This document shows, piece after piece, positions 46,130 through 60,383 of a stretch of 64,000 nt of DNA; the stretch's first letter is position 1, and every line of letters starts with the position of its first letter. Position numbers and translations under genes: made by a program. Under the pieces are notes generated by a model. That model saw only the letters and a list, made by a program, of their open reading frames with translations. It did not search any database and had not been told where the DNA came from. The DNA comes from Arcobacteraceae bacterium (GTDB lineage: Bacteria > Campylobacterota > Campylobacteria > Campylobacterales > Arcobacteraceae). The stretch is from the NCBI GenBank assembly GCA_041672955.1, contig JBAYYP010000003.1:13899-77898 (forward strand), given 5' to 3'.

Positions 46130-46216
46130 GCGAGTGTGGCGGAACTGGTAGACGCGCGGGACTTAAAATCCCGTTCCCATTAGGGAGTGTGAGTTCGATT
46201 CTCACCATTCGCACCA
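46130..46216 (+). tRNA. tRNA-Leu (anticodon TAA)
   Basis: Cloverleaf with long variable arm, loop CTTAAAA, GTTCGA T-loop, encoded CCA. Confidence 0.95.
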
Positions 46217-46230
46217 CTAATTATTAATGT

Positions 46231-46319
46231 AGAGAGCTGCCAGAGTTGGTCGAATGGACCGGTTTTGAAAACCGGCGAGGTGAAAGCCTCCGGGGGTTCG
46301 AATCCCCCGCTCTCTGCCA
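46231..46319 (+). tRNA. tRNA-Ser (anticodon TGA)
   Basis: Acceptor stem AGAGAGC/GCTCTCT; CCGGT-TTTGAAA-ACCGG anticodon arm; long variable arm; GCCA end. Confidence 0.95.
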
Positions 46320-46376
46320 TTAATCAAAATAAATCATCTAACTTCTCAATTTAAATGATTTAGCCTATACTTTTTT

Positions 46377-46451
46377 GGAGCCATAGCAAAGTGGCTAATG
46401 CATTGGATTGCAAATCCTTGATCCTCGGTTCGACTCCGAGTGGCTCCTCCA
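46377..46451 (+). tRNA. tRNA-Cys (anticodon GCA)
   Basis: GGAGCCA/TGGCTCC acceptor stem; loop TTGCAAA; U73 discriminator then CCA. Confidence 0.95.
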
Positions 46452-47819: not shown

Positions 47820-48284
47820 CTATAATCCATTTTTCTTATTAATATATTGCATTCCACATGCTTCATCTTCTCGTGACCACACTTCTAAAGGCTTTTTTAA
47901 AATATCTACTTCATTGGAATCTAAAAGAGAGTTGTTTGCAATATATACATATGCTTTTTGAACAATATTATCTAGGGTTCTTACTTCAATTGTTTCTCTG
48001 TTATAAAAACCTGCACTAACTCCTTCTAAAATATCCAGTTCAGAAAGAAGCTCATTATTAATTTTATACAATTCACCTTTTACAGATATTGATTTTTTAA
48101 TATCTTCATGGGATATTGCTTTAAATAAAAATGGAAAAAAGTAATTAATGTTGGGGTACATTAAAAAGGTATCAAGAGTAGTTGCATTATCTATTTTTAA
48201 AGCATTTTCCAATAAAAAGTGATTATAAAATCCACTTTTTAAGCTTCCATATACAAAAACATTTATTGTTAAATCTTTATTCAT
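47820..48284 (-). CDS. Gamma-glutamylcyclotransferase (GGCT/AIG2-like), copy 1
   Basis: VFVYGSLK.G..NH; VKGELY; LDILEG; YNR. Confidence 0.88.
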   Translation of the reverse strand: MNKDLTINVFVYGSLKSGFYNHFLLENALKIDNATTLDTFLMYPNINYFFPFLFKAISHEDIKKSISVKGELYKINNELLSELDILEGVSAGFYNRETIEVRTLDNIVQKAYVYIANNSLLDSNEVDILKKPLEVWSREDEACGMQYINKKNGL

Positions 48285-48317: not shown

Positions 48318-48346
48318 ACAATATCAAATTGACAAAAATGTGTCAA
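48318..48346 (-). promoter_or_regulatory. Promoter of GGCT copy 1 overlapped by the palindrome TTGACA-N6-TGTCAA
   Basis: Minus strand TTGACA, 17 bp, TATTGT; palindrome at 48329-48346. Confidence 0.55.
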
Positions 48347-48869: not shown

Positions 48870-49475
48870 CTACTTTTTTAGACAAAATAAACTACTTTCT
48901 AATTTTTTAATATAATCAGACAGTTTTTCATTTTTAATTACAAGTTGTTCTATCTCATCTCTTAAATAAGAGGTCTCTTTATGATTATATTGTTCTAGAA
49001 ATTTCTCAATATATGAGAAATTACTTATATCACTGTTATTATTATGTAAGAAATTCAATAATTGAGTATCTTCACTTTGGGCAATTACTTCATTTGATAA
49101 GCCACTAATAACGATAGATAACTTCAAGCTATTTTTTTCTATTAAGTCATTTGCTTTTGTTGCAAAATTTATCTCCGTATCTTTATTGACCAAACGATTA
49201 ATCGAACCCATTAAATCTTTAACAATAAAAAGACTTACATTTGTATGAATATCAAATATAACAAGAACGCCTTTTGCAAATTTTAGTTTATTTCTAAGTG
49301 GTATAAATATATTTCTTGAAATTTCATGAACTTTATATACCTTTGTAAATCCAGTAATATTTCCTTCCATTTCTAAAATCATTTTTGTATCGACAAAGTC
49401 CATTGCCAATTGCATCTCTTTTAAGATATCTGTTTCAATTTTGCTTCTATTACTCATTTTTAACTCTCTTAGCAT
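48870..49475 (-). CDS. Stand-alone FtsZ C-terminal-domain-like protein with coiled-coil tail
   Basis: MDFVDTKMIL..EG (cf. NLDFADVKTVM..G), AKGVLVIFDIH, EINFAT, LKLSIVISGL (cf. VxVTIIATG). Confidence 0.65.
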   Translation of the reverse strand: MLRELKMSNRSKIETDILKEMQLAMDFVDTKMILEMEGNITGFTKVYKVHEISRNIFIPLRNKLKFAKGVLVIFDIHTNVSLFIVKDLMGSINRLVNKDTEINFATKANDLIEKNSLKLSIVISGLSNEVIAQSEDTQLLNFLHNNNSDISNFSYIEKFLEQYNHKETSYLRDEIEQLVIKNEKLSDYIKKLESSLFCLKK

Positions 49476-50912
49476 TTAGCTAATGTTTCTAAAAACATTG
49501 TTATTTGGTCTTCTATTATGTATAAAAGATTTTCTTGTAGGTATTTCTTTAGGCATTGATAAATAATCAACTACAATTCTTTGTTCATCAATAGTTTCAA
49601 TAACTATTTTATACTCTTCGAGTAATTTATTATCGGTAACAAACATATACGCTTGAGGGCTTTCATAATCAGCAACACGCAATAGATTATTTATCTGTAA
49701 ATATTTATATTCAACTTTAATTAACTCTTTTTTATCAATAAATATAGGCTTTGCAAAATAACTTCTGTTATTTGCTAAATTAATATATTCAAACTCTTTT
49801 AGCTGCTCATTATCATTGGTATTAAAGCTATATCGTGAGATGATATTTGTGTATAACTCTTGATATTGATTTTCCCCTAATTTATTCTTTAAAAGTATCT
49901 CATCTTGTGTTGCAAACAGATATTCAAAATTACTCTCTCTACAAACATCAACTTGAGGTAAATACTCAGAGTTTAAGACTTTTTGGGCTTCATCAATTAC
50001 AATACAAACAGGTTTCATCTCAAAATAGCTGGCTTTTTGAAGTCTTGTATAAATAGCTGTATTAATGGCATTTAATACACTTTCACTTAAATTTGATACA
50101 TCAATGATGATAATTTTTCCTGCTCTTAACTCTTTAATAATATCTAAGTCACTCTCATTCAAATATGCTTTTGTAGCTATTTGATTTAAAATAGTACTTA
50201 AATGATTTACAATGCCATTTTTACCGAAATCATCCTCTATTTTTGTTTTTTCATAAAGTTTTAAAGTAGCCAATGTTTTTCCAATATTATTTAACAAATC
50301 ATTAAAAATATGTTCTCTTTTTCTAAAAAACTTATCTTTTGGTCTTGGCATTTTTTTAACATATTCTAAACTGCTTACCATATTTTCATAGAAAGATTTT
50401 ATAGCTTCAACATTTGCCACACAAGAGTATAAACTTGCATAGCTAATATTTTTATGTATAGATGGAATATTAAATCCAGAGTGATACTTATTTACTATTT
50501 CCTTTAAAAGATTGAAATTTTTATGAATAGTAAAAACATTTTCCATCAATGATTTAGCAGAATTTTCCCAGTAATCACCAACTCCTTTTGACTTAACAAC
50601 TAAGGGGATTTGACTTGAAGATAAGTAATCACATAGATTTATATTTTTACCCCATGGTTTACCTATTTCAATAACCTCATGCAATTTGTCATGTTTATTT
50701 GCAAGATATTTTGCTTGAAGGTGTAAGTTGCCTTTAAAATCATAGATTAAAACACCATAGTCTGATTTAATTCTCTCTTCTATATTTGGTAAAACAGAAC
50801 ATGAAGTTTTTCCGCTTCCTGTTCTTCCAAACACTATTCCACTGGTAAACTTTTTAGGTAAAACCATGCTTTGTATATTTCTTTCAGTTGTAGTATTAAA
50901 TCCCATTGCCAT
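49476..50912 (-). CDS. VirD4/TraD-like P-loop ATPase without an N-terminal TM anchor
   Basis: GRTGSGKT...PNI; VLIYDFKG; Walker B IVIDEAQ; FATQ. Confidence 0.7.
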   Translation of the reverse strand: MAMGFNTTTERNIQSMVLPKKFTSGIVFGRTGSGKTSCSVLPNIEERIKSDYGVLIYDFKGNLHLQAKYLANKHDKLHEVIEIGKPWGKNINLCDYLSSSQIPLVVKSKGVGDYWENSAKSLMENVFTIHKNFNLLKEIVNKYHSGFNIPSIHKNISYASLYSCVANVEAIKSFYENMVSSLEYVKKMPRPKDKFFRKREHIFNDLLNNIGKTLATLKLYEKTKIEDDFGKNGIVNHLSTILNQIATKAYLNESDLDIIKELRAGKIIIIDVSNLSESVLNAINTAIYTRLQKASYFEMKPVCIVIDEAQKVLNSEYLPQVDVCRESNFEYLFATQDEILLKNKLGENQYQELYTNIISRYSFNTNDNEQLKEFEYINLANNRSYFAKPIFIDKKELIKVEYKYLQINNLLRVADYESPQAYMFVTDNKLLEEYKIVIETIDEQRIVVDYLSMPKEIPTRKSFIHNRRPNNNVFRNIS

Positions 50913-53021: not shown

Positions 53022-53927
53022 ATGAATTCATCATTGCGTATATTAAGTATTTATTTAATGTTTCAAAAAGGATTGAATCTATCTACAAAGGAGTTGGCGG
53101 ATAAATATAGTACTACAACAAGAACTATATTAAGAGATATAAAAACAATCAACTCTTTACAAGAAACAAAAGTAATTTATAACCGTATTACAAATTTATG
53201 GGTTTTAGAAGATTATATTAAATTAGATTATCTAAGTGATGAAGAGATATCATTAATTGAGGCTTTATCTTCAAAGTCAACTGAAATGGGTGAAGACTTT
53301 CATAACCAAACTTCTAAATTATTTAAAAAATTTAAAAGAAATCTTCATAATTGTATTTATGAGAACATTGATACTGAAGATATAACAAATATTAAAAGAG
53401 ATTTAGTGGTTGTTGAATATTGTGTTTATAATAAAACAAAAATAGAATTAATCTATCAAAATAAACAAAGAGTTGTAGAGCCTCTAAAGTTAGCCAATTA
53501 TGATGGCTATTGGTATTTATTAGTGAATGATTTAACTAATAATAGAGTAAAAACATTTTATTTTAAAGATATAAAAGAGCTAAAACCTCTAAAAGACTTT
53601 TTTACCATTAAAATCGAAAATATAGAAGATAGGATGAAAAATGCAATTAATGCTTATTTTACTCTCGATGTTAAACCTTATGAAGTAAAACTTTTCATAA
53701 CAAGCCAAAAGGCTAATATTTTTAAAAGGAAACCTATATCCCCATCTCAACTTATATTAAAGGAGTATTCTGATGGCTCTTTTGACTTTAGTATTTGGAT
53801 AACACATGATATGGAGATAATTCCAACTATTCAAAAGTTTTTACCATATTTAAAAATACTAAGTGATGACATACATGGCAAACGCATATATAATCAAATT
53901 ATTGAAAATATAAATAAATTCAAATAA
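53022..53927 (+). CDS. WYL-domain transcriptional regulator (wHTH-WYL-WCX)
   Basis: LSTKELADKYSTTTRTILRDI HTH; RVVEPLKL...GYWYLL; KTFYFKDI. Confidence 0.92.
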   Translation: MNSSLRILSIYLMFQKGLNLSTKELADKYSTTTRTILRDIKTINSLQETKVIYNRITNLWVLEDYIKLDYLSDEEISLIEALSSKSTEMGEDFHNQTSKLFKKFKRNLHNCIYENIDTEDITNIKRDLVVVEYCVYNKTKIELIYQNKQRVVEPLKLANYDGYWYLLVNDLTNNRVKTFYFKDIKELKPLKDFFTIKIENIEDRMKNAINAYFTLDVKPYEVKLFITSQKANIFKRKPISPSQLILKEYSDGSFDFSIWITHDMEIIPTIQKFLPYLKILSDDIHGKRIYNQIIENINKFK

Positions 53928-53937
53928 GCCATCAAAC

Positions 53938-53968
53938 GACACATTATGTCTTTTGATTAATATATAAT
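53938..53968 (+). promoter_or_regulatory. Promoter of the RNase H-ddmDE operon with palindrome GACA-N5-TGTC at the -35 position
   Basis: GACACATTATGTC at 53938-53950; TATAAT at 53963-53968; RBS GAGGAG. Confidence 0.55.
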
Positions 53969-53988
53969 ATTTGGCATGAGGAGTTTTC

Positions 53989-54387
53989 ATGTCAAAAATT
54001 AAAAGAAGAATGCTGTATGTTGATGCAACAGGATATAAAGACAATACTGAATTTAAAATATCTCTTTATGATCCAGAAATTAATCTTACTAATATATTAG
54101 CACTAAAAGATATCTCAACATCAAATGAAGCAGAAAAATATGCAATTCTTTATGGAATTCTTTACAGTGTAAAAAGTAACTTAAAAAGTGTACACATCTT
54201 ATGTGATAATCAAAATGCTACTGAATCAAAAGAACTACGAGAATTAGCTGCTTATGCATCAATTAGAATTTTGTGGATACCAAGAGAGCTAAATACAATT
54301 GCCGATAAAATTGCAAAATTAGAGCCAACTGTTAAAGAAAAAGAGTGGTATTTGTTACATTTTATATATAAAAACTTAAGGGTATAA
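53989..54387 (+). CDS. Small RNase HI-like protein
   Basis: Four acidic catalytic positions: YVDA, NEAEKYA, LCDNQ and WIPRELNTIADK. Confidence 0.8.
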   Translation: MSKIKRRMLYVDATGYKDNTEFKISLYDPEINLTNILALKDISTSNEAEKYAILYGILYSVKSNLKSVHILCDNQNATESKELRELAAYASIRILWIPRELNTIADKIAKLEPTVKEKEWYLLHFIYKNLRV

Positions 54388-57300
54388 ATGGAAAATAAAT
54401 ATCCTACAACTGAGTATATAAAAGAATTATATAAAAAATACTTGCCGATATATGATGGAGAAAGAAAGAGCGGATTATTTTTATTGCCAGCTCAAACAGG
54501 AAGTGGAAAGACTCATGCAACAGCTTTTGTAATTGCAGATGTTCTAAGAAACTATAAAGATAAAAATATTATTTATCTTATTAATACCAAAAGTAATAGA
54601 AGTAACATTAAAGAAGATATTTTAAAACTATCAATTGATGAATTAGAAAAAGAAGCATTTAATAACGATATCCTAGAACTCAAATCTAATGAAGATAATT
54701 TATTTGATTTTTTTACGAATGAAGCTTTTAAAGAGTTAAGACATCTGAATGAAATAGATGAATATATAGCTTTAAAAAAAAAGATAACTTCCTTACAAGA
54801 AATAAAAAAAACTAATGTTGAAATATATGAGATTTACAAAAAAGAAGATACTGATCTAAAAAATAAGATATCACAACTTTATAAAGATGATGAAATTTCG
54901 ATTGAATTGCTGGAAGAAATTAAAAAGATATATCCAACTGTCGGTTTGAATAATAGAGTTATAATCACTACTTCGCATAAGTTTGTTGAACAGACTTTTA
55001 CCCTACCTACAAGAAAATATCTTTTTGAAATGTATGACACAAAAAATACTCTAATTTTTATTGATGAGTTTGATACACAAAAAGGCGTAATACTTGATAG
55101 TTTTATCAAAAAATCTGTTGAAAAATCTCTTGATAACTTTGAACTTTTAAAAATTATTCATGAAAGACTACATGAACATCTAATAAGAGATTATAGTAAA
55201 TATGAAGAGTTATTGGCGTTAAAAAATGAGATTAAATTTTTTTATGAAGAGAATAATTTTGCCAATAGATTTAAGTATGACAGTGATGAAAAACAATACT
55301 TTTTAAGAGATACGGCATCTATAACAATAAATACATCTGCAAAAAAGCACATTATAAAAAAAGGGAACAATTTAGCTACTAACTTTATAATACAAAGTGA
55401 TGAAGTAGATTATAAGGGCAGTTTTGAAGAACTGTTTGATAAATCTGATAAATTGGTTAATAGATTTTTAGGACTTATAAAACAATCTGCTTATGAGATT
55501 GCTGCTACAAAAGGTGAAGATATATCGGACATTATTTATACTTTCTTATCTGAATTTATTGCTTCAAAGGATACGCAAGATATTACAATAGTTAACAGAA
55601 TTTTAAGGGAACAAAATAAAAAAATAGATAAAAAATATTTTCAAAGTGATATTAGTAAGGCATATACGGGATTATACTCTTTGCTTACGATTATAAATGA
55701 CTCTAAACACAAGACTACAAGTAGATTTGGAAACTACACATTAGAAAACACCCCAGAAGCTTTTTTAAATTTTTTAACAGATAAATTTTTTGTAATAGGT
55801 ATCTCTGCAACAGCTACTATTAAAACAAAAATAGACAACTTTGATTTGGAGCATTTAGAAGATAAAATTATCTATTTAACTAAAAAAGAGATTGAAAAAC
55901 TCAATCAACTGTTTTTAGAATATAAAGTAAAAAATAGAAAATCTGTTATAAAGTTTATGGATAACTCAATTCATAAAAGAAAAATTGATATAAAACATTA
56001 CATTGATTCATTGGATTTGTTTCCCAAAGACGATAATATATTTGACTATTTTTGGAATAAATTAAATTTTGAAGACAATAATAAAGCTTATAACTTATCA
56101 AAATATATTGATCTACTTTTAGTGTATAAAGAGTTTATAATCTCAGAAACTATTCATAAGCTTTTATACTTAAATACATTTAGTTTTGAAAAAAAATATA
56201 ATCTTGAATTACTATATAAGATGATAGCACTTATGATAAGGCACAACTATTCAAACCTCTCTTCTTGCATGCAAAAGAGATTTAAAGGTGTATGTGATTG
56301 GGATTTAAACGATATAAATTTATTAATGGTTAAAAGCTCCATTTTTATGATTCATTTTACAAACGCTAATGATGATAAGAAAAAATGGAAAGAGTCTCTG
56401 TATTATGATAGTAAAGTTTTCTTAGTATCAAACTTTGCTTACATGTCTAAAGGGCAAAATATACAATATGATTATAATGATGGGAAAATTGGTTCAATTA
56501 CTAAAGAAAAAGATTTTGATGCCATATATATAGGCGAAATAACCAACAGACTCCCATCAAAATTAGACAATGAGAAAAAAGAACACCAACTGCTTAGATT
56601 GCTCTATAGCTTAACTGTTTTAAAAAATAATGGTGATATATCTAAAAAAGAAAAATATGTTTTTTTAAAAGCTGTTTTATCAGGAAGTAAATACGCAGAA
56701 AACCCATATAAGGAAACTGAAGATTATATTAATAGTTGTATGATACTTATAATACAAAGCATAGGAAGACTACATAGGACAGATTTTCCAAGTGATATTT
56801 ATATTCTCTTTCATGACACTAATAAAAAAATACTTCAAAGATTTAACCCTGAAAATCAATCGTTACTTCCTTCTGTAATTGAGAGTATGCTCATAGCAAA
56901 AGAAGAAATATCTGAAGAAAATGCGTCAAAAAATCATATAACTAATGAAACGAAAAACAAAAATATCAAGGATAATTTATCTTATATTTTAGAAATATTT
57001 AACAATAAGAATTCTTCTAAATCGAAATATAACGAAGCTATTGAGGATTGGGAAAAGGAGAGGGTGTTGTTACTTACAAATCCTTCAAAAGAAAAACTTT
57101 ATTCAAAAGACCATAAATATATGACTATGCCTTTAAAGCAATATTGGTATAAGCAAAAGAATGATTATGAAACCATTGAGATAAGCCATGAATATAAGAA
57201 AGGATATACAGAAGTATCTTATGAAGCAACAAGACTCGACAAGCTATATAAAATAAAAGAGCTACAAGAGTGCTTTTCAAAATACAACATAGCAAAATCA

Positions 57301-57786
57301 TTTGAATATGAGAATATTTTAATTCCCATAGTATTTAACAATTTTTACAAAGGTGCAATTGGTGAAATATTTGGTAAATATATATTAGAAAAATATGCAA
57401 ATATTAAACTTTTTGAACTTTGTTATGAATCGCAAGCTCAATATGAAACCTTTGATTTTACAAATGAAGACGAGAGTGTATATTTTGATTTTAAATATTT
57501 TAGCACCTATACGGCTTCATCTATTATATTGCCTGTTGAACTAGCCGATGTTATTAAAGCAAAATTAAGTGGGGAAAATCTTCATAATAAAAAGGTATTC
57601 ATCATTAATCTTTTTGATGATGACACAGAGCAAAGCCACTTAACAAGGTCAAGTAAGATTGAAATTATTGATAATATTTATTTTATTCCTTGGCTTATTA
57701 ATTTAGATAAGGAATTAAACCCGCAAATTGATACAAAAATGATTGTAAAAATAGGAGAGATTTATGCTAAATGTGCAAACAAATAA
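54388..57786 (+). CDS. ddmD: SF2 helicase with C-terminal PD-(D/E)XK nuclease, DdmD-like
   Basis: AQTGSGKT, FIDEFD, GISATA, QSIGRLHR; C-terminal YKGAIGE...FDF...YFDFK nuclease; 1132 aa. Confidence 0.7.
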   Translation: MENKYPTTEYIKELYKKYLPIYDGERKSGLFLLPAQTGSGKTHATAFVIADVLRNYKDKNIIYLINTKSNRSNIKEDILKLSIDELEKEAFNNDILELKSNEDNLFDFFTNEAFKELRHLNEIDEYIALKKKITSLQEIKKTNVEIYEIYKKEDTDLKNKISQLYKDDEISIELLEEIKKIYPTVGLNNRVIITTSHKFVEQTFTLPTRKYLFEMYDTKNTLIFIDEFDTQKGVILDSFIKKSVEKSLDNFELLKIIHERLHEHLIRDYSKYEELLALKNEIKFFYEENNFANRFKYDSDEKQYFLRDTASITINTSAKKHIIKKGNNLATNFIIQSDEVDYKGSFEELFDKSDKLVNRFLGLIKQSAYEIAATKGEDISDIIYTFLSEFIASKDTQDITIVNRILREQNKKIDKKYFQSDISKAYTGLYSLLTIINDSKHKTTSRFGNYTLENTPEAFLNFLTDKFFVIGISATATIKTKIDNFDLEHLEDKIIYLTKKEIEKLNQLFLEYKVKNRKSVIKFMDNSIHKRKIDIKHYIDSLDLFPKDDNIFDYFWNKLNFEDNNKAYNLSKYIDLLLVYKEFIISETIHKLLYLNTFSFEKKYNLELLYKMIALMIRHNYSNLSSCMQKRFKGVCDWDLNDINLLMVKSSIFMIHFTNANDDKKKWKESLYYDSKVFLVSNFAYMSKGQNIQYDYNDGKIGSITKEKDFDAIYIGEITNRLPSKLDNEKKEHQLLRLLYSLTVLKNNGDISKKEKYVFLKAVLSGSKYAENPYKETEDYINSCMILIIQSIGRLHRTDFPSDIYILFHDTNKKILQRFNPENQSLLPSVIESMLIAKEEISEENASKNHITNETKNKNIKDNLSYILEIFNNKNSSKSKYNEAIEDWEKERVLLLTNPSKEKLYSKDHKYMTMPLKQYWYKQKNDYETIEISHEYKKGYTEVSYEATRLDKLYKIKELQECFSKYNIAKSFEYENILIPIVFNNFYKGAIGEIFGKYILEKYANIKLFELCYESQAQYETFDFTNEDESVYFDFKYFSTYTASSIILPVELADVIKAKLSGENLHNKKVFIINLFDDDTEQSHLTRSSKIEIIDNIYFIPWLINLDKELNPQIDTKMIVKIGEIYAKCANK

Positions 57787-59524
57787 AGTTGATATTAAAA
57801 TAAAATATCAAAATTTACATGAAGATTTTAAAATATTATCAAAATCTATTCAATACAAAAGCTTCAAAGAAAGAGGAAAATTGATAAATGACTTTAAAAA
57901 AGATATTAATCCTCTTGCTTTTACTATTACAAAAGATGAAATCATTTATATAGTGAATAAAAATGATTTGATAAAAGATGATATGAGTAAAAAAGTTCCT
58001 ATGTTTAAAATAGAATCATTTCCAAAAGATTTTATAGCAAATCTTTTATTCCAATTTTTAAGAGAAAAACTCAATTTTTTCTCAATAATAGAAGAGCCTT
58101 ACAAGTTGTTTTACTTAGTGAAGAATGGTAAAAAGATTCTGGAGACTCTTTGTTTTGAGATAGATAAAAATAGTCTATTTCAAGCAAATGCTGTTGCATT
58201 TAAAAAGTTTGAAGGAGATGCAAAAGAGTCAAAAAACATACTATACACAACAAATGGAAAAGCATTAACAATTTACAAAGAAGACCAAAAAAGCAAAGAT
58301 TTATTTTCAAAAGGCAATTTTAGAAATAAGAAGATTACTATAGAATTTTTTTCAAGGAGCATTAATCAATATCCTAATTCTAAAGCATATTTTATTGCTA
58401 TGTTCTTAATAGATATAAAAAAACATTTAAGCCATTACATAGATATAAGCTTTACAAGAGAACTTATGACAAGCTATAAAAGCTATACAAATAGTTATAA
58501 AGAAAAGAAAGCAAATATAACACTTAAAAATATCCAAAGTTCAATAGCTGAATTAAATATACTAAATTGTACAAAATATTCAACTGATACGCTAATGACT
58601 TCTATAAAAAAAGTTTTTGATGACAAAATAGAAATATCACTAGATAAGCCTATTGAGAAAAATGAGTTTAATTTAGTTTTATTGTATAGCAAAGAGTATT
58701 ATACAAAAAACAATATTGAAGATCCATACAAGAATCTAAAAAAACTAAACCCCTATACTCAGGTCTTGATTTTAGATAATAAAAAAATAAACAATTATTC
58801 TTTAGAGGTATGCTTAAAAGAGTTGTTGATAAAAAACGACATTAATAACAAAAAAATTACACTAAGTACCTATGAGAGTAACCAAATTCATAAAATTTAC
58901 TCCATAGAAGCCATCAAAAACAAAGATACCATATATAAAGTCCATGAATTAAGTATAGAAAAACATCAAGCAATCTCATATAAAATATTAGAACAAGAAG
59001 AAGCAGAAGAGTTTATTCAATATTTTTTGAATACCAATAATTCAGATCATGCTCTTGAGGTGCTAGTAGAAGATTTTGAAGGAAATATCAATGCAATTTA
59101 TAAAACTAAACAATATCCAATAGTAGATTTTGAAGGAATATATGATTATTACAATACTGTAGATGTAGAAATTGAGAAATTTAATCCAGCTAGAAAAGGC
59201 AAAGAAGATTCAAAAGAACATTCGAAGAGATATCATCTTACACAGGGATTTCATAATTTAAAATACTACTTGTCTGAAAGTAAAGCATATTATACAGTTG
59301 GTGTGAATGTAGGAACCAATAATTTTTCAAAAACTGCTCCTATACGAAAAGTTTGTGCCTATAAAGGAGACCTGATTTTAGATAAAATTTTGCCAACTCT
59401 TGATGAGTTTTTTGTTAAAAACAAAGAATTTACGGTGTTGCCTTTTGGGTTAAAATATTTAAGAGAGTTTAGGCAAATAATAAAGGGAGGGTCGTGTTTT
59501 GTACCTTTGAGCAGAAATACCTAA
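57764..59524 (+). CDS. ddmE: Divergent prokaryotic Argonaute-like protein, DdmE-like
   Basis: Overlaps the helicase-nuclease gene; MID-like EYY...DPY...Q and LKELLIK; C-terminal FVKNKEFTVLPFGLKYLREF, recalled from DdmE-type proteins. Confidence 0.6.
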   Translation: MLNVQTNKVDIKIKYQNLHEDFKILSKSIQYKSFKERGKLINDFKKDINPLAFTITKDEIIYIVNKNDLIKDDMSKKVPMFKIESFPKDFIANLLFQFLREKLNFFSIIEEPYKLFYLVKNGKKILETLCFEIDKNSLFQANAVAFKKFEGDAKESKNILYTTNGKALTIYKEDQKSKDLFSKGNFRNKKITIEFFSRSINQYPNSKAYFIAMFLIDIKKHLSHYIDISFTRELMTSYKSYTNSYKEKKANITLKNIQSSIAELNILNCTKYSTDTLMTSIKKVFDDKIEISLDKPIEKNEFNLVLLYSKEYYTKNNIEDPYKNLKKLNPYTQVLILDNKKINNYSLEVCLKELLIKNDINNKKITLSTYESNQIHKIYSIEAIKNKDTIYKVHELSIEKHQAISYKILEQEEAEEFIQYFLNTNNSDHALEVLVEDFEGNINAIYKTKQYPIVDFEGIYDYYNTVDVEIEKFNPARKGKEDSKEHSKRYHLTQGFHNLKYYLSESKAYYTVGVNVGTNNFSKTAPIRKVCAYKGDLILDKILPTLDEFFVKNKEFTVLPFGLKYLREFRQIIKGGSCFVPLSRNT

Positions 59525-59726: not shown

Positions 59727-60383
59727 ATGAAAAAACTTACGAAACTTATTAATAAACTTATTAAAAGAGTTGATTTTTTAAGTAATAAAATAGACAAAAT
59801 CTACGAAGATAAAGCAATATGTATCATCGGAGTTGGAGGTGGCGGCTGTAATATAGTTGATGATATAGCTAAACTAGATAATAGTTTTAATATCATTCAC
59901 ATAAACAGTGATATAAATGCTTTAAATACAAAATATTCAGGAAATAAAATAGTTTTAGGTCGTGATATTAAAAGAGGATTTGGTTGTGGTGGTCAAGTAT
60001 CTTGTGGAAGAAAACTTTTTGATGAAAAGATAAAAAAAGAGTTATTAAATTTAATTAAGAACAATGAAAAGATATATCTTGTCTCAACTTTAGGTGGCGG
60101 TGTAGGAAGTGGCGTTATTCCAGAGATTTTAAAGTACCTTCAGTACATTGGAAAAGATGTTAAAGTGATTGTAACTATTCCTTTTAGTTTTGAGGGAAAG
60201 AAAAGAAAAACCAACGCTTATAATTCAATACAAGATATAGAAAAAATTAGCCATGAAAAAACAAATATTAGGGTACTTAAAAACGATGATTTAATCAAGA
60301 AAGCTATCGATGAAGAGCTTAGTGTTAAAGAGACTTTTTTATTAACTTCAAGTATTATTTTTAAGATGATAGAAAAAATCTAA
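59727..60383 (+). CDS. Stand-alone FtsZ/tubulin GTPase (N-terminal) domain protein
   Basis: GVGGGGCN, INSD, GFGCGG, TLGGGVGSG, TIPFSFEGKKR, KNDDL; ends after helix H7, with no T7 loop or C-domain. Confidence 0.85.
   Translation: MKKLTKLINKLIKRVDFLSNKIDKIYEDKAICIIGVGGGGCNIVDDIAKLDNSFNIIHINSDINALNTKYSGNKIVLGRDIKRGFGCGGQVSCGRKLFDEKIKKELLNLIKNNEKIYLVSTLGGGVGSGVIPEILKYLQYIGKDVKVIVTIPFSFEGKKRKTNAYNSIQDIEKISHEKTNIRVLKNDDLIKKAIDEELSVKETFLLTSSIIFKMIEKI

What the first reader, a model, noticed from the sequence alone, without database searches (positions are those of the whole stretch)
53022..59524. WYL-controlled DdmDE-like Argonaute/helicase-nuclease system with a coupled RNase H-like gene
Seen: WYL gene, promoter, RNase H-like ORF with all four acidic residues whose stop abuts the ATG of a 1132-aa SF2 helicase/PD-(D/E)XK nuclease, which overlaps a 586-aa partner. 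Known: Vibrio cholerae DdmDE is a DNA-guided, catalytically inactive pAgo that recruits a helicase-nuclease to destroy plasmids, and how its guides are made is unresolved. Inference: a compact Campylobacterota DdmDE variant in which the RNase H-like enzyme could act on primers or R-loops to supply guides. Alternative: the RNase H gene belongs to the island backbone.
Basis: partly seen in the sequence, partly recalled or inferred. Interest (0 to 1): 0.78.

Follow-up and report, generated by a model that had tools for sequence, protein, structure and literature searches.

The report
DdmDE variant lacking its docking domain
This gene cluster encodes a relative of the DdmDE plasmid-defence pair whose Argonaute keeps its guide-binding residues but lacks the domain that the studied versions use to dock their helicase-nuclease, so it likely docks it another way, while the RNase H-like gene in front is probably a passenger rather than a guide maker.

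Summary
The four genes are real. 54388-57786 is a full-length DdmD relative with Walker A and all five nuclease residues. 57764-59524 has the DdmE fold (Z about 21) and all six guide-pocket residues, but lacks the PIWI insertion (INS) domain whose deletion abolishes plasmid elimination in Vibrio cholerae. INS is missing in 9 of 24 DdmE sequences aligned, and one clade for them was rejected. The scan noted INS-less DdmE before on other DNA; my paper searches found no description. A DriD-type palindrome lies in the promoter after the WYL gene; WYL control of ddmDE is already published. The RNase H-like gene is an intact Sulfolobus-type RNase HI, but its coupling is not conserved: 0 of 20 other ddmD loci with enough upstream DNA have it in this position, 3 of 30 have some RNase H nearby, and 0 of 18 RNase H loci hold ddmDE. 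The closest ddmD with context carries the same leader without it. One further co-located case is likely. Verdict: new variant of a known system; guide-maker role about 15%.

The parts
53022..53927 (+). HTH-WYL transcription regulator (301 aa), likely controller of the operon
   Evidence: Pfam HTH_11 and WYL over cut-off; PADLOC WYL E 8.5e-18; WYL genes directly upstream of ddmD in L038, L045, L053, L057
53931..53957 (.). Imperfect palindrome with core GACA-N5-TGTC (53938-53950), likely WYL operator, DriD-type
   Evidence: same core as the DriD site in PMC10853764; same motif before ddmD in L046 and before five island genes, WYL among them, in L035; 192 of 200000 shuffles
53963..53983 (+). -10 box (53963-53968) 12 bases after the palindrome, and ribosome-binding site (53978-53983)
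   Evidence: sequence; a like leader precedes ddmD directly in L046
53989..54387 (+). RNase HI-like protein, Sulfolobus/RVT_3 type (132 aa), D12-E49-D73-D106 intact; probably a co-transcribed passenger
   Evidence: alignment A1; profile hits S. tokodaii RNase HI E 8e-8; model pLDDT 91.9, Foldseek top hit 3aly
54388..57786 (+). DdmD relative (1132 aa): SF2 helicase plus PD-(D/E)xK nuclease; K41, D226/E227, E993, E1020, D1023, D1034, K1036
   Evidence: phmmer against PDB: V. cholerae DdmD E 9e-21 over residues 170-1038, L. casei DdmD 1e-16; residues invariant in A2; catalytic list
57764..59524 (+). DdmE relative (586 aa): DdmE-fold Argonaute with guide pocket Y322, Q333, E353, K357, K564, E568, without the INS domain
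   Evidence: profile against PDB E 8e-42 and 2e-34; model pLDDT 84.8; Foldseek E 2.5e-26; Z 21.8, rmsd 3.8 over 526 residues
59159..59248 (+). Short loop (about residues 466-495) where INS-bearing DdmE proteins carry the insertion domain
   Evidence: span between anchors 45 aa here against 93-144 in 15 INS-bearing relatives; no folded domain in the model at this place
46130..46451 (+). tRNA-Leu, -Ser, -Cys cluster at the left edge of the low-GC island that holds the system (context)
   Evidence: no second copy of the tRNA-Cys end found in the 84%-complete assembly

Best explanation
The cluster encodes a DdmD helicase-nuclease and an insertion-less DdmE Argonaute that likely act as a DNA-guided anti-plasmid system under likely WYL control, with the RNase H-like gene probably a co-transcribed passenger. 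Shown here: family identity, intact catalytic and guide-pocket residues, loss of INS, gene order, the palindrome and leader. Inferred from the studied systems: the WYL dimer sits on the palindrome and responds to single-stranded DNA; DdmE loads a short 5'-phosphorylated DNA guide and opens a bubble on plasmid DNA; DdmD loads on the displaced strand, moves 5' to 3' and nicks it. Inferred and specific to this variant: with no INS, docking would rest on the remaining L1/C-APAZ contact with the DdmD HD2 bundle and on the DNA bubble itself. The RNase H gene, a mobile island gene of this phylum, would have landed between the leader and the ddmD start (or been lost from the sister locus), so it is co-induced but not needed; guides would come from host end resection and DdmD products, as proposed for the known systems.
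For: DdmD and DdmE identity. Six pocket residues read YQEKKE in 8 of the 9 INS-less sequences (HQEKKE in L078) and in 13 of 15 INS-bearing ones; helicase and nuclease motifs intact in the partners of INS-less DdmE that were aligned. INS-less proteins are only 27-46% identical across groups, which argues for long survival. RNase H not coupled: 0 of 20 other ddmD loci with at least 500 bases upstream have a same-strand RNase H directly in front; 0 of 18 RNase H stretches of 10-18 kb hold ddmD or ddmE; in 183 family genomes ddmD is in 3 and the RNase H query in 15, with no overlap by those queries; near-identical ddmD alleles occur with (L048) and without (L035, L047) a neighbouring RNase H; L046, the closest ddmD with context (51% over residues 4-136), has a like palindrome, -10 box and ribosome-binding site directly before ddmD; the palindrome is absent upstream of 10 of 10 other RNase H genes looked at; the host has its own rnhA. 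WYL directly before ddmD in 4 of those 20 loci.
Against: RNase H-like genes stand within about 450 bases of ddmDE in 3 of 30 other loci (L048 and L051 on the opposite strand upstream, L060 on the same strand 138 bases after ddmE), from at least three separate branches of the RNase H tree counting the window, far more than random placement would give. The 73%-identical RNase H P0016 and the 46%-identical DdmE P0006 are both on 2 contigs with a longest length of 5620, which suggests a second locus with the window's layout. Contigs about 94% identical from two other studies join the WYL end to the RNase H start. The RNase H is intact and abuts ddmD. Deleting INS abolishes activity in V. cholerae, and I found no clear compensating change in DdmD. 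Most loci are short contigs, and kin are not independent.
Confidence: 0.66

Rival explanations
1. The RNase H is a real accessory factor that ddmDE systems have picked up more than once: it would cut RNA primers or R-loops on invading DNA at the RNA-DNA junction, leaving 5'-phosphorylated DNA ends that DdmD trims into guides, or it would clear RNA from the path of DdmD.
For: First cistron of the unit, zero-base junction with ddmD; neighbours of ddmDE in 3 of 30 other loci from separate RNase H branches; probable second same-layout locus; the closest solved relative, S. tokodaii RNase HI, is reported to cut Okazaki-like junctions weakly, and for the E. coli enzyme this cut leaves a 5'-phosphate (PMC4423430, passages); V. 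cholerae DdmE needs a 5'-phosphate; guide origin is called open in the preprints read.
Against: Absent from 27 of 30 ddmD/E loci and from both studied systems as described; positions and strands vary; 0 of 18 RNase H loci hold ddmDE; an RNase H cannot by itself make a short DNA; the host already has rnhA; RNase H and ddmE genes flank the same NUDIX gene in different genomes, which points to shared insertion hot spots.
Confidence: 0.16
2. Loss of INS has uncoupled the pair: DdmE binds guided targets but does not recruit DdmD, and the locus is weak, decaying, or DdmD works alone on single-stranded or forked DNA.
For: INS deletion abolishes plasmid elimination in V. cholerae; INS makes one of the two DdmD contacts and holds the duplex next to the guide 5' end in L. 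casei; one INS-less locus has a broken ddmD (L036); Vc R232 and H663 are not kept here (T192, N553; my reading).
Against: Both ORFs are intact and overlap; INS-less proteins keep the pocket across three deep groups and stay directly behind ddmD in every INS-less locus with context (L035, L036, L047, L055, L060, L078); Atlas clusters of 590 and 580 aa with 63 and 59 members match the model at TM 0.82 and 0.74, so short forms look common.
Confidence: 0.12
3. The small RNase H-fold protein serves as a separate docking subunit in place of the missing INS domain.
For: Of the loci where both are visible, RNase H neighbours go with INS-less DdmE (window, L060, the probable 5620-base contig; L048 shares the ddmDE allele of INS-less L035).
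Against: INS-less L035, L036, L047, L055 and L078 have no RNase H; the family keeps a full catalytic site and mostly occurs without ddmDE.
Confidence: 0.03

Closest known systems
DdmDE of Vibrio cholerae (PDB 9ezy, 8u3k, 9bf1; bioRxiv 10.1101/2024.05.10.593530)
   Same: ddmD-ddmE order; SF2 helicase plus PD-(D/E)xK nuclease with K55 and E1059/E1082/D1085/D1100/K1102 kept; DdmE fold with Y363/Q376/E401/K405/K674/E678 kept; upstream WYL gene
   Different: DdmE is 586 against 687 aa and lacks the INS domain; about 18% structural identity; an RNase H-like gene lies between leader and ddmD; host is Campylobacterota
DdmDE of Lactobacillus casei (PDB 9iw3, 9ix4, 9ixm; bioRxiv 10.1101/2024.10.09.617351)
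   Same: best sequence hit for DdmE, same fold from N domain to PIWI
   Different: its insertion (residues 510-616), which binds DdmD HD2 and the proximal duplex, has no counterpart here
RNase HI of Sulfolobus tokodaii (PDB 3aly, 2ehg), Pfam RVT_3
   Same: fold, four acidic residues, the W-x-P-R-E-x-N-x-x-A-D stretch
   Different: 19% identity; a shorter middle part and an added C-terminal helix; a patchy island gene in addition to the host rnhA, not a housekeeping gene
DriD and WYL(DE)/BrxR-type WYL regulators (PMC10853764, PMC13622015)
   Same: HTH plus WYL; palindrome core equal to that of the DriD site; position upstream of ddmDE as in V. cholerae
   Different: no PDB sequence hit; activator or repressor not determined
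ApsAB (PMC11096173)
   Same: helicase-nuclease plus Argonaute-like partner, anti-plasmid
   Different: ApsB is described as lacking the PIWI RNase H fold and any similarity to DdmE; this protein matches DdmE by profile and fold

Membership tests
DdmDE | DdmD: full-length SF2 helicase fused to a C-terminal PD-(D/E)xK nuclease | tested here: met
   E 9e-21 to V. cholerae DdmD over residues 170-1038
DdmDE | DdmD Walker A lysine and five nuclease residues | tested here: met
   K41, E993, E1020, D1023, D1034, K1036, all invariant in 17 aligned homologues
DdmDE | ddmE directly behind ddmD on the same strand | tested here: met
   23-base overlap
DdmDE | DdmE: long Argonaute fold, N to MID-PIWI, closer to DdmE than to other Argonautes | tested here: met
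   Z 18-22 to six DdmE chains against at most 11.7 to other Argonautes
DdmDE | 5'-phosphate guide pocket (Vc Y363, Q376, E401, K405, K674, E678) | tested here: met
   Y322, Q333, E353, K357, K564, E568
DdmDE | No DEDX catalytic tetrad in PIWI | tested here: met
   no Asp conserved at 90% or more in the PIWI part of alignment A4; judged by conservation, not by superposing active sites
DdmDE (canonical long-C DdmE as described) | INS insertion domain in PIWI, called conserved in long-C and needed for activity | tested here: not met
   45 aa between anchors against 93-144 in INS-bearing relatives; short loop in the model. Filed therefore as a variant, not as a canonical member
DdmDE | Recognised by the PADLOC DdmE profile | tested here: inconclusive
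   no hit for the window protein; 2 of 20 aligned relatives hit PDLC04131: the profile is narrow
DdmDE | Uses short 5'-P DNA guides, recruits DdmD to a bubble, eliminates plasmids | not testable with these tools
   needs experiments
DdmDE | Auto-inhibited DdmD dimer | not tested
   no model of DdmD was made
RNase HI, Sulfolobus/RVT_3 type | RNase H fold with D-E-D-D active site | tested here: met
RNase HI, Sulfolobus/RVT_3 type | Cleaves RNA in RNA-DNA hybrids | not testable with these tools
   needs an assay
Dedicated third component of a ddmDE subtype | Conserved position next to ddmD/E across independent loci | tested here: not met
WYL regulators of defence operons (DriD, BrxR, WYL-DE) | HTH plus WYL domain and a palindrome in the target promoter | tested here: met
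WYL regulators of defence operons (DriD, BrxR, WYL-DE) | Binds the palindrome and responds to single-stranded DNA | not testable with these tools
   needs binding and expression data
ApsAB | ApsB-type partner without the PIWI fold | not tested
   no ApsB sequence was compared; the DdmE match makes it unlikely

The most novel reading that the evidence does not exclude
A minimal DdmDE subtype that hands DNA to DdmD without the INS docking domain and that has recruited, more than once, an RNase HI which turns primer-linked or R-loop DNA of invaders into 5'-phosphorylated guide precursors, all switched on together by a WYL sensor: the first dedicated guide-supply factor of a DdmDE system.
Probability: 0.15. 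Interest if true: 0.82.

Novelty: new variant of a known kind. Interest (0 to 1): 0.46.

Why it matters
Three structural studies and a 2026 review treat the INS domain as the handle by which DdmE recruits DdmD. A naturally INS-less but otherwise intact DdmE, present in more than one lineage, would show that the handover can work by another route, and gives a smaller DNA-guided targeting module to study. The locus also offers a clean three-gene test of the open question of guide origin, although gene neighbourhoods say the RNase H is more likely a passenger. Such systems are missed by the PADLOC, Pfam and NCBIfam profiles tried here.

Tried and rejected
Pfam, PADLOC and NCBIfam do not name DdmD or DdmE here. 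A single-protein scan of genome contigs found nothing; the alignment scan found 4 loci. Viral contigs: one ddmE locus (again in 102), none for the RNase H or ddmD alignments. Complex prediction of DdmE with the RNase H gave no answer (score 0.00, mark 0.32), which is no evidence either way. Sequencing runs: no RNA holder listed; only small shares; no laid contig bridged the RNase H-ddmD junction, which proves nothing. No second copy of the tRNA-Cys end was found in the assembly, so the right edge of the island is unknown. No clear compensating change in the DdmD HD2 bundle separated partners of INS-less and INS-bearing DdmE. The consensus promoter scan was not above chance. The palindrome was not found between WYL and ddmD in L038, L045, L053, L057, whose WYL is distant (23% for L045); these may use another site. 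Cluster look-up gave no accession numbers for the Logan proteins, so the P0006/P0016 link rests on contig count and length. Bravo 2024 and Jaskolska 2022 are not held. Rejected: a fusion of the RNase H to DdmD (longest of 77 representatives is 311 aa); RNase H as the host's housekeeping copy (rnhA on contig C8); a frameshift or misassembly as cause of the missing INS (open frame, same gap in 8 other sequences).
Full report
Observation. The four ORFs are present, intact and arranged as described. The RNase H-like stop is followed directly by the ddmD start, and ddmD overlaps its partner by 23 bases. The genes are 24-27% GC in a 31.5% GC genome, inside a low-GC stretch that begins after a tRNA-Leu/Ser/Cys cluster at 46130-46451 and also holds a type I methyltransferase-specificity gene, a TraD/HerA-like ATPase and Tn3 remnants. 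The genome belongs to the same family as genomes whose loci match records named Arcobacter and Aliarcobacter, so it is very likely Arcobacteraceae (inference).

DdmD. The 1132-aa protein matches V. cholerae DdmD at E 9e-21 over residues 170-1038 and L. casei DdmD at 1e-16; these were the only 6 PDB sequences matched. The residues named as catalytic in the Loeff preprint (K55; E1059, E1082, D1085, D1100, K1102; passages) map to K41, E993, E1020, D1023, D1034 and K1036, all invariant in 17 homologues (K41 by motif, as the pairwise alignment starts at residue 170).

DdmE. Alone, the 586-aa protein hits only L. casei DdmE (E 0.0065). A profile of 20 relatives hits L. casei and V. cholerae DdmE at 8e-42 and 2e-34 and nothing else. 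The model (pLDDT 84.8) matches DdmE chains first (Foldseek E 2.5e-26; Z 21.8, rmsd 3.8 over 526 residues, against at most 11.7 for other Argonautes). The six residues that hold the guide 5' end in V. cholerae (section 8) map to Y322, Q333, E353, K357, K564 and E568. No Asp is conserved in the PIWI part, in line with an inactive Argonaute.

The missing domain. Between two conserved anchors (Y451, F496) the window protein has 45 residues; 15 relatives have 93-144 and 9, the window included, have 32-45 (for the first 20). The gap falls where L. casei has its insertion (510-616; parts 1 and 2 of 3 read). The Loeff preprint calls this INS domain conserved in long-C Argonautes and reports that deleting it abolishes anti-plasmid activity; the Yang preprint lists DdmD salt bridges to DdmE K523 and E568 (passages); a 2026 review repeats the INS docking model (PMC13618286, passages). 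The INS-less sequences form two fully supported Campylobacterota groups of four and one distant sequence, L078; a tree without the INS columns needs 3 changes, at least 2 forced, and one clade is rejected at p-AU 0.0005 in a quick search with long branches; whether the two Campylobacterota groups share one loss is unresolved. Atlas clusters of 590 and 580 aa, mostly Bacillota where known, match the protein's Atlas model at TM 0.82 and 0.74, a lead that short forms are widespread. Searches listed no paper describing INS-less DdmE; two key journal papers and the preprint supplements could not be read, so it may be noted there. Two earlier notes of this scan report INS-less DdmE on other DNA; I had recorded the loss before seeing them, and they are not independent support.

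Control. The WYL gene has HTH and WYL domains. In the 61 bases after it lie a palindrome with core GACA-N5-TGTC, a -10 box 12 bases on and a ribosome-binding site. The core occurs 6 times in the 2.05-Mb assembly and in 192 of 200000 shuffles of the gap, and equals the core of the DriD site (PMC10853764, passages). The same core with a 5- or 6-base spacer lies about 45-65 bases upstream of five island genes, the WYL gene among them, in L035, and between WYL and an ATPase gene in L044. It was not found at four other WYL-ddmD junctions. WYL control of ddmDE through single-stranded DNA is already reported for V. cholerae (PMC13622015, passages), so this part is not new.

The RNase H. It is a well-folded (pLDDT 91.9) RNase HI of the Sulfolobus/RVT_3 type with an intact active site, extra to the host rnhA. 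Its family is patchy in Campylobacterota: 15 of 183 other family genomes and 3 of 400 phylum genomes match it, whereas ddmD is in 3 of 183 and 3 of 400 (one of these a weak N-terminal match only), with no genome shared by those queries. One ddmD genome does hold a distant 245-aa RNase H that the query missed (L060). Of 30 other ddmD/E loci (duplicates, sub-stretches, the weak match L005 and the fragment L058 left out), 3 have an RNase H-like gene close by, in three layouts unlike the window's; of the 20 with at least 500 bases upstream, none has it on the same strand directly in front, and two of those 20 have a damaged ddmD start. Of 18 RNase H stretches of 10-18 kb, none holds ddmD or ddmE; they lie at ends of relaxase-type elements, beside toxin-antitoxin and NUDIX genes, near integrases or alone. 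Near-identical ddmD alleles come with and without an RNase H neighbour (L048 against L035, L047). Most telling, the closest ddmD with context (L046) has a like palindrome, -10 box and ribosome-binding site directly before ddmD, so the RNase H ORF was either inserted behind that leader or lost from L046; the leader belongs to ddm, since 10 of 10 other RNase H genes looked at lack the palindrome.

Against the passenger reading. The neighbours of ddmDE come from at least three RNase H branches, P0016 and P0006 probably share a 5620-base contig that would just hold the three genes, related strains keep the WYL-RNase H junction, and the enzyme type has the right chemistry in principle (PMC4423430, passages). 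Repeated recruitment cannot be excluded, but shared insertion sites explain the pattern as well, and searches listed no paper linking an RNase H to DdmE (the one relevant hit, PMC11096173, uses the term only for the PIWI fold).

Mechanism and verdict. Most likely: WYL-gated expression; guide-loaded DdmE opens plasmid DNA; DdmD loads on the displaced strand and nicks it; docking without INS rests on the L1/C-APAZ contact and the bubble (K190 aligns with Vc K230 in my reading); the RNase H is co-induced but dispensable (0.66). Everything after the anatomy is inferred from the studied systems. It works like DdmDE, but fails one described feature of canonical DdmE, so I file it as a new variant of a known kind.

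Noticed in passing
window 48331-48344: A second palindrome (6-base spacer) lies 47 bases upstream of the gamma-glutamyl cyclotransferase-like gene 47820-48284, so the WYL protein may control more of the island, as the five sites in L035 suggest.
   Followed up: partly
L060:5487-11880: ddmD-ddmE-RNase H (245 aa) lies directly upstream of two genes that look like addB and addA (PD-(D/E)xK and UvrD domains; the names are my inference), the end-resection machine proposed as a guide source.
   Followed up: no
L046:1430-1450: The closest ddmD relative appears to start at ATA right after the ribosome-binding site: a rare start codon, a damaged start or an assembly error.
   Followed up: no
window 59727-60383 and 48870-49475: FtsZ pieces in the island: an isolated tubulin/FtsZ GTPase domain (218 aa) right after ddmE and a protein weakly like the FtsZ C-terminal part 10 kb away on the other strand.
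   Followed up: no
window 49476-50912; L009, L044, L082: The same TraD/HerA-like ATPase family recurs near ddmDE in L009 and L044 and a similar-looking gene lies near the RNase H on an Arcobacter plasmid, hinting at one family of mobile islands.
   Followed up: no
proteins P0062, P0066, P0090: Some RNase H homologues carry a C-terminal extension that looks like an OST-HTH/LOTUS domain (recalled resemblance; Pfam gave no hit); a separate 245-253-aa subfamily sits near integrase genes.
   Followed up: partly
L082:6953-7366: The RNase H homologue on an 83-kb Arcobacter plasmid is interrupted by in-frame stops and is unannotated.
   Followed up: no
L078:2271-12748: An INS-less ddmE in a relaxase- and recombinase-bearing element from the viral collection, followed by GmrSD-like genes; its ddmD seems shortened at the start by the recombinase gene.
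   Followed up: partly
L011:1-10995: RNase H inside a run of PLD nuclease, SbcD-like phosphoesterase, SMC-like ATPase and helicase genes on a mobile element: possibly another defence operon.
   Followed up: no
L083 and L084: INS-bearing ddmDE pairs on plasmids of Nostoc and Francisella philomiragia, annotated only as hypothetical proteins: an anti-plasmid system carried by plasmids.
   Followed up: partly
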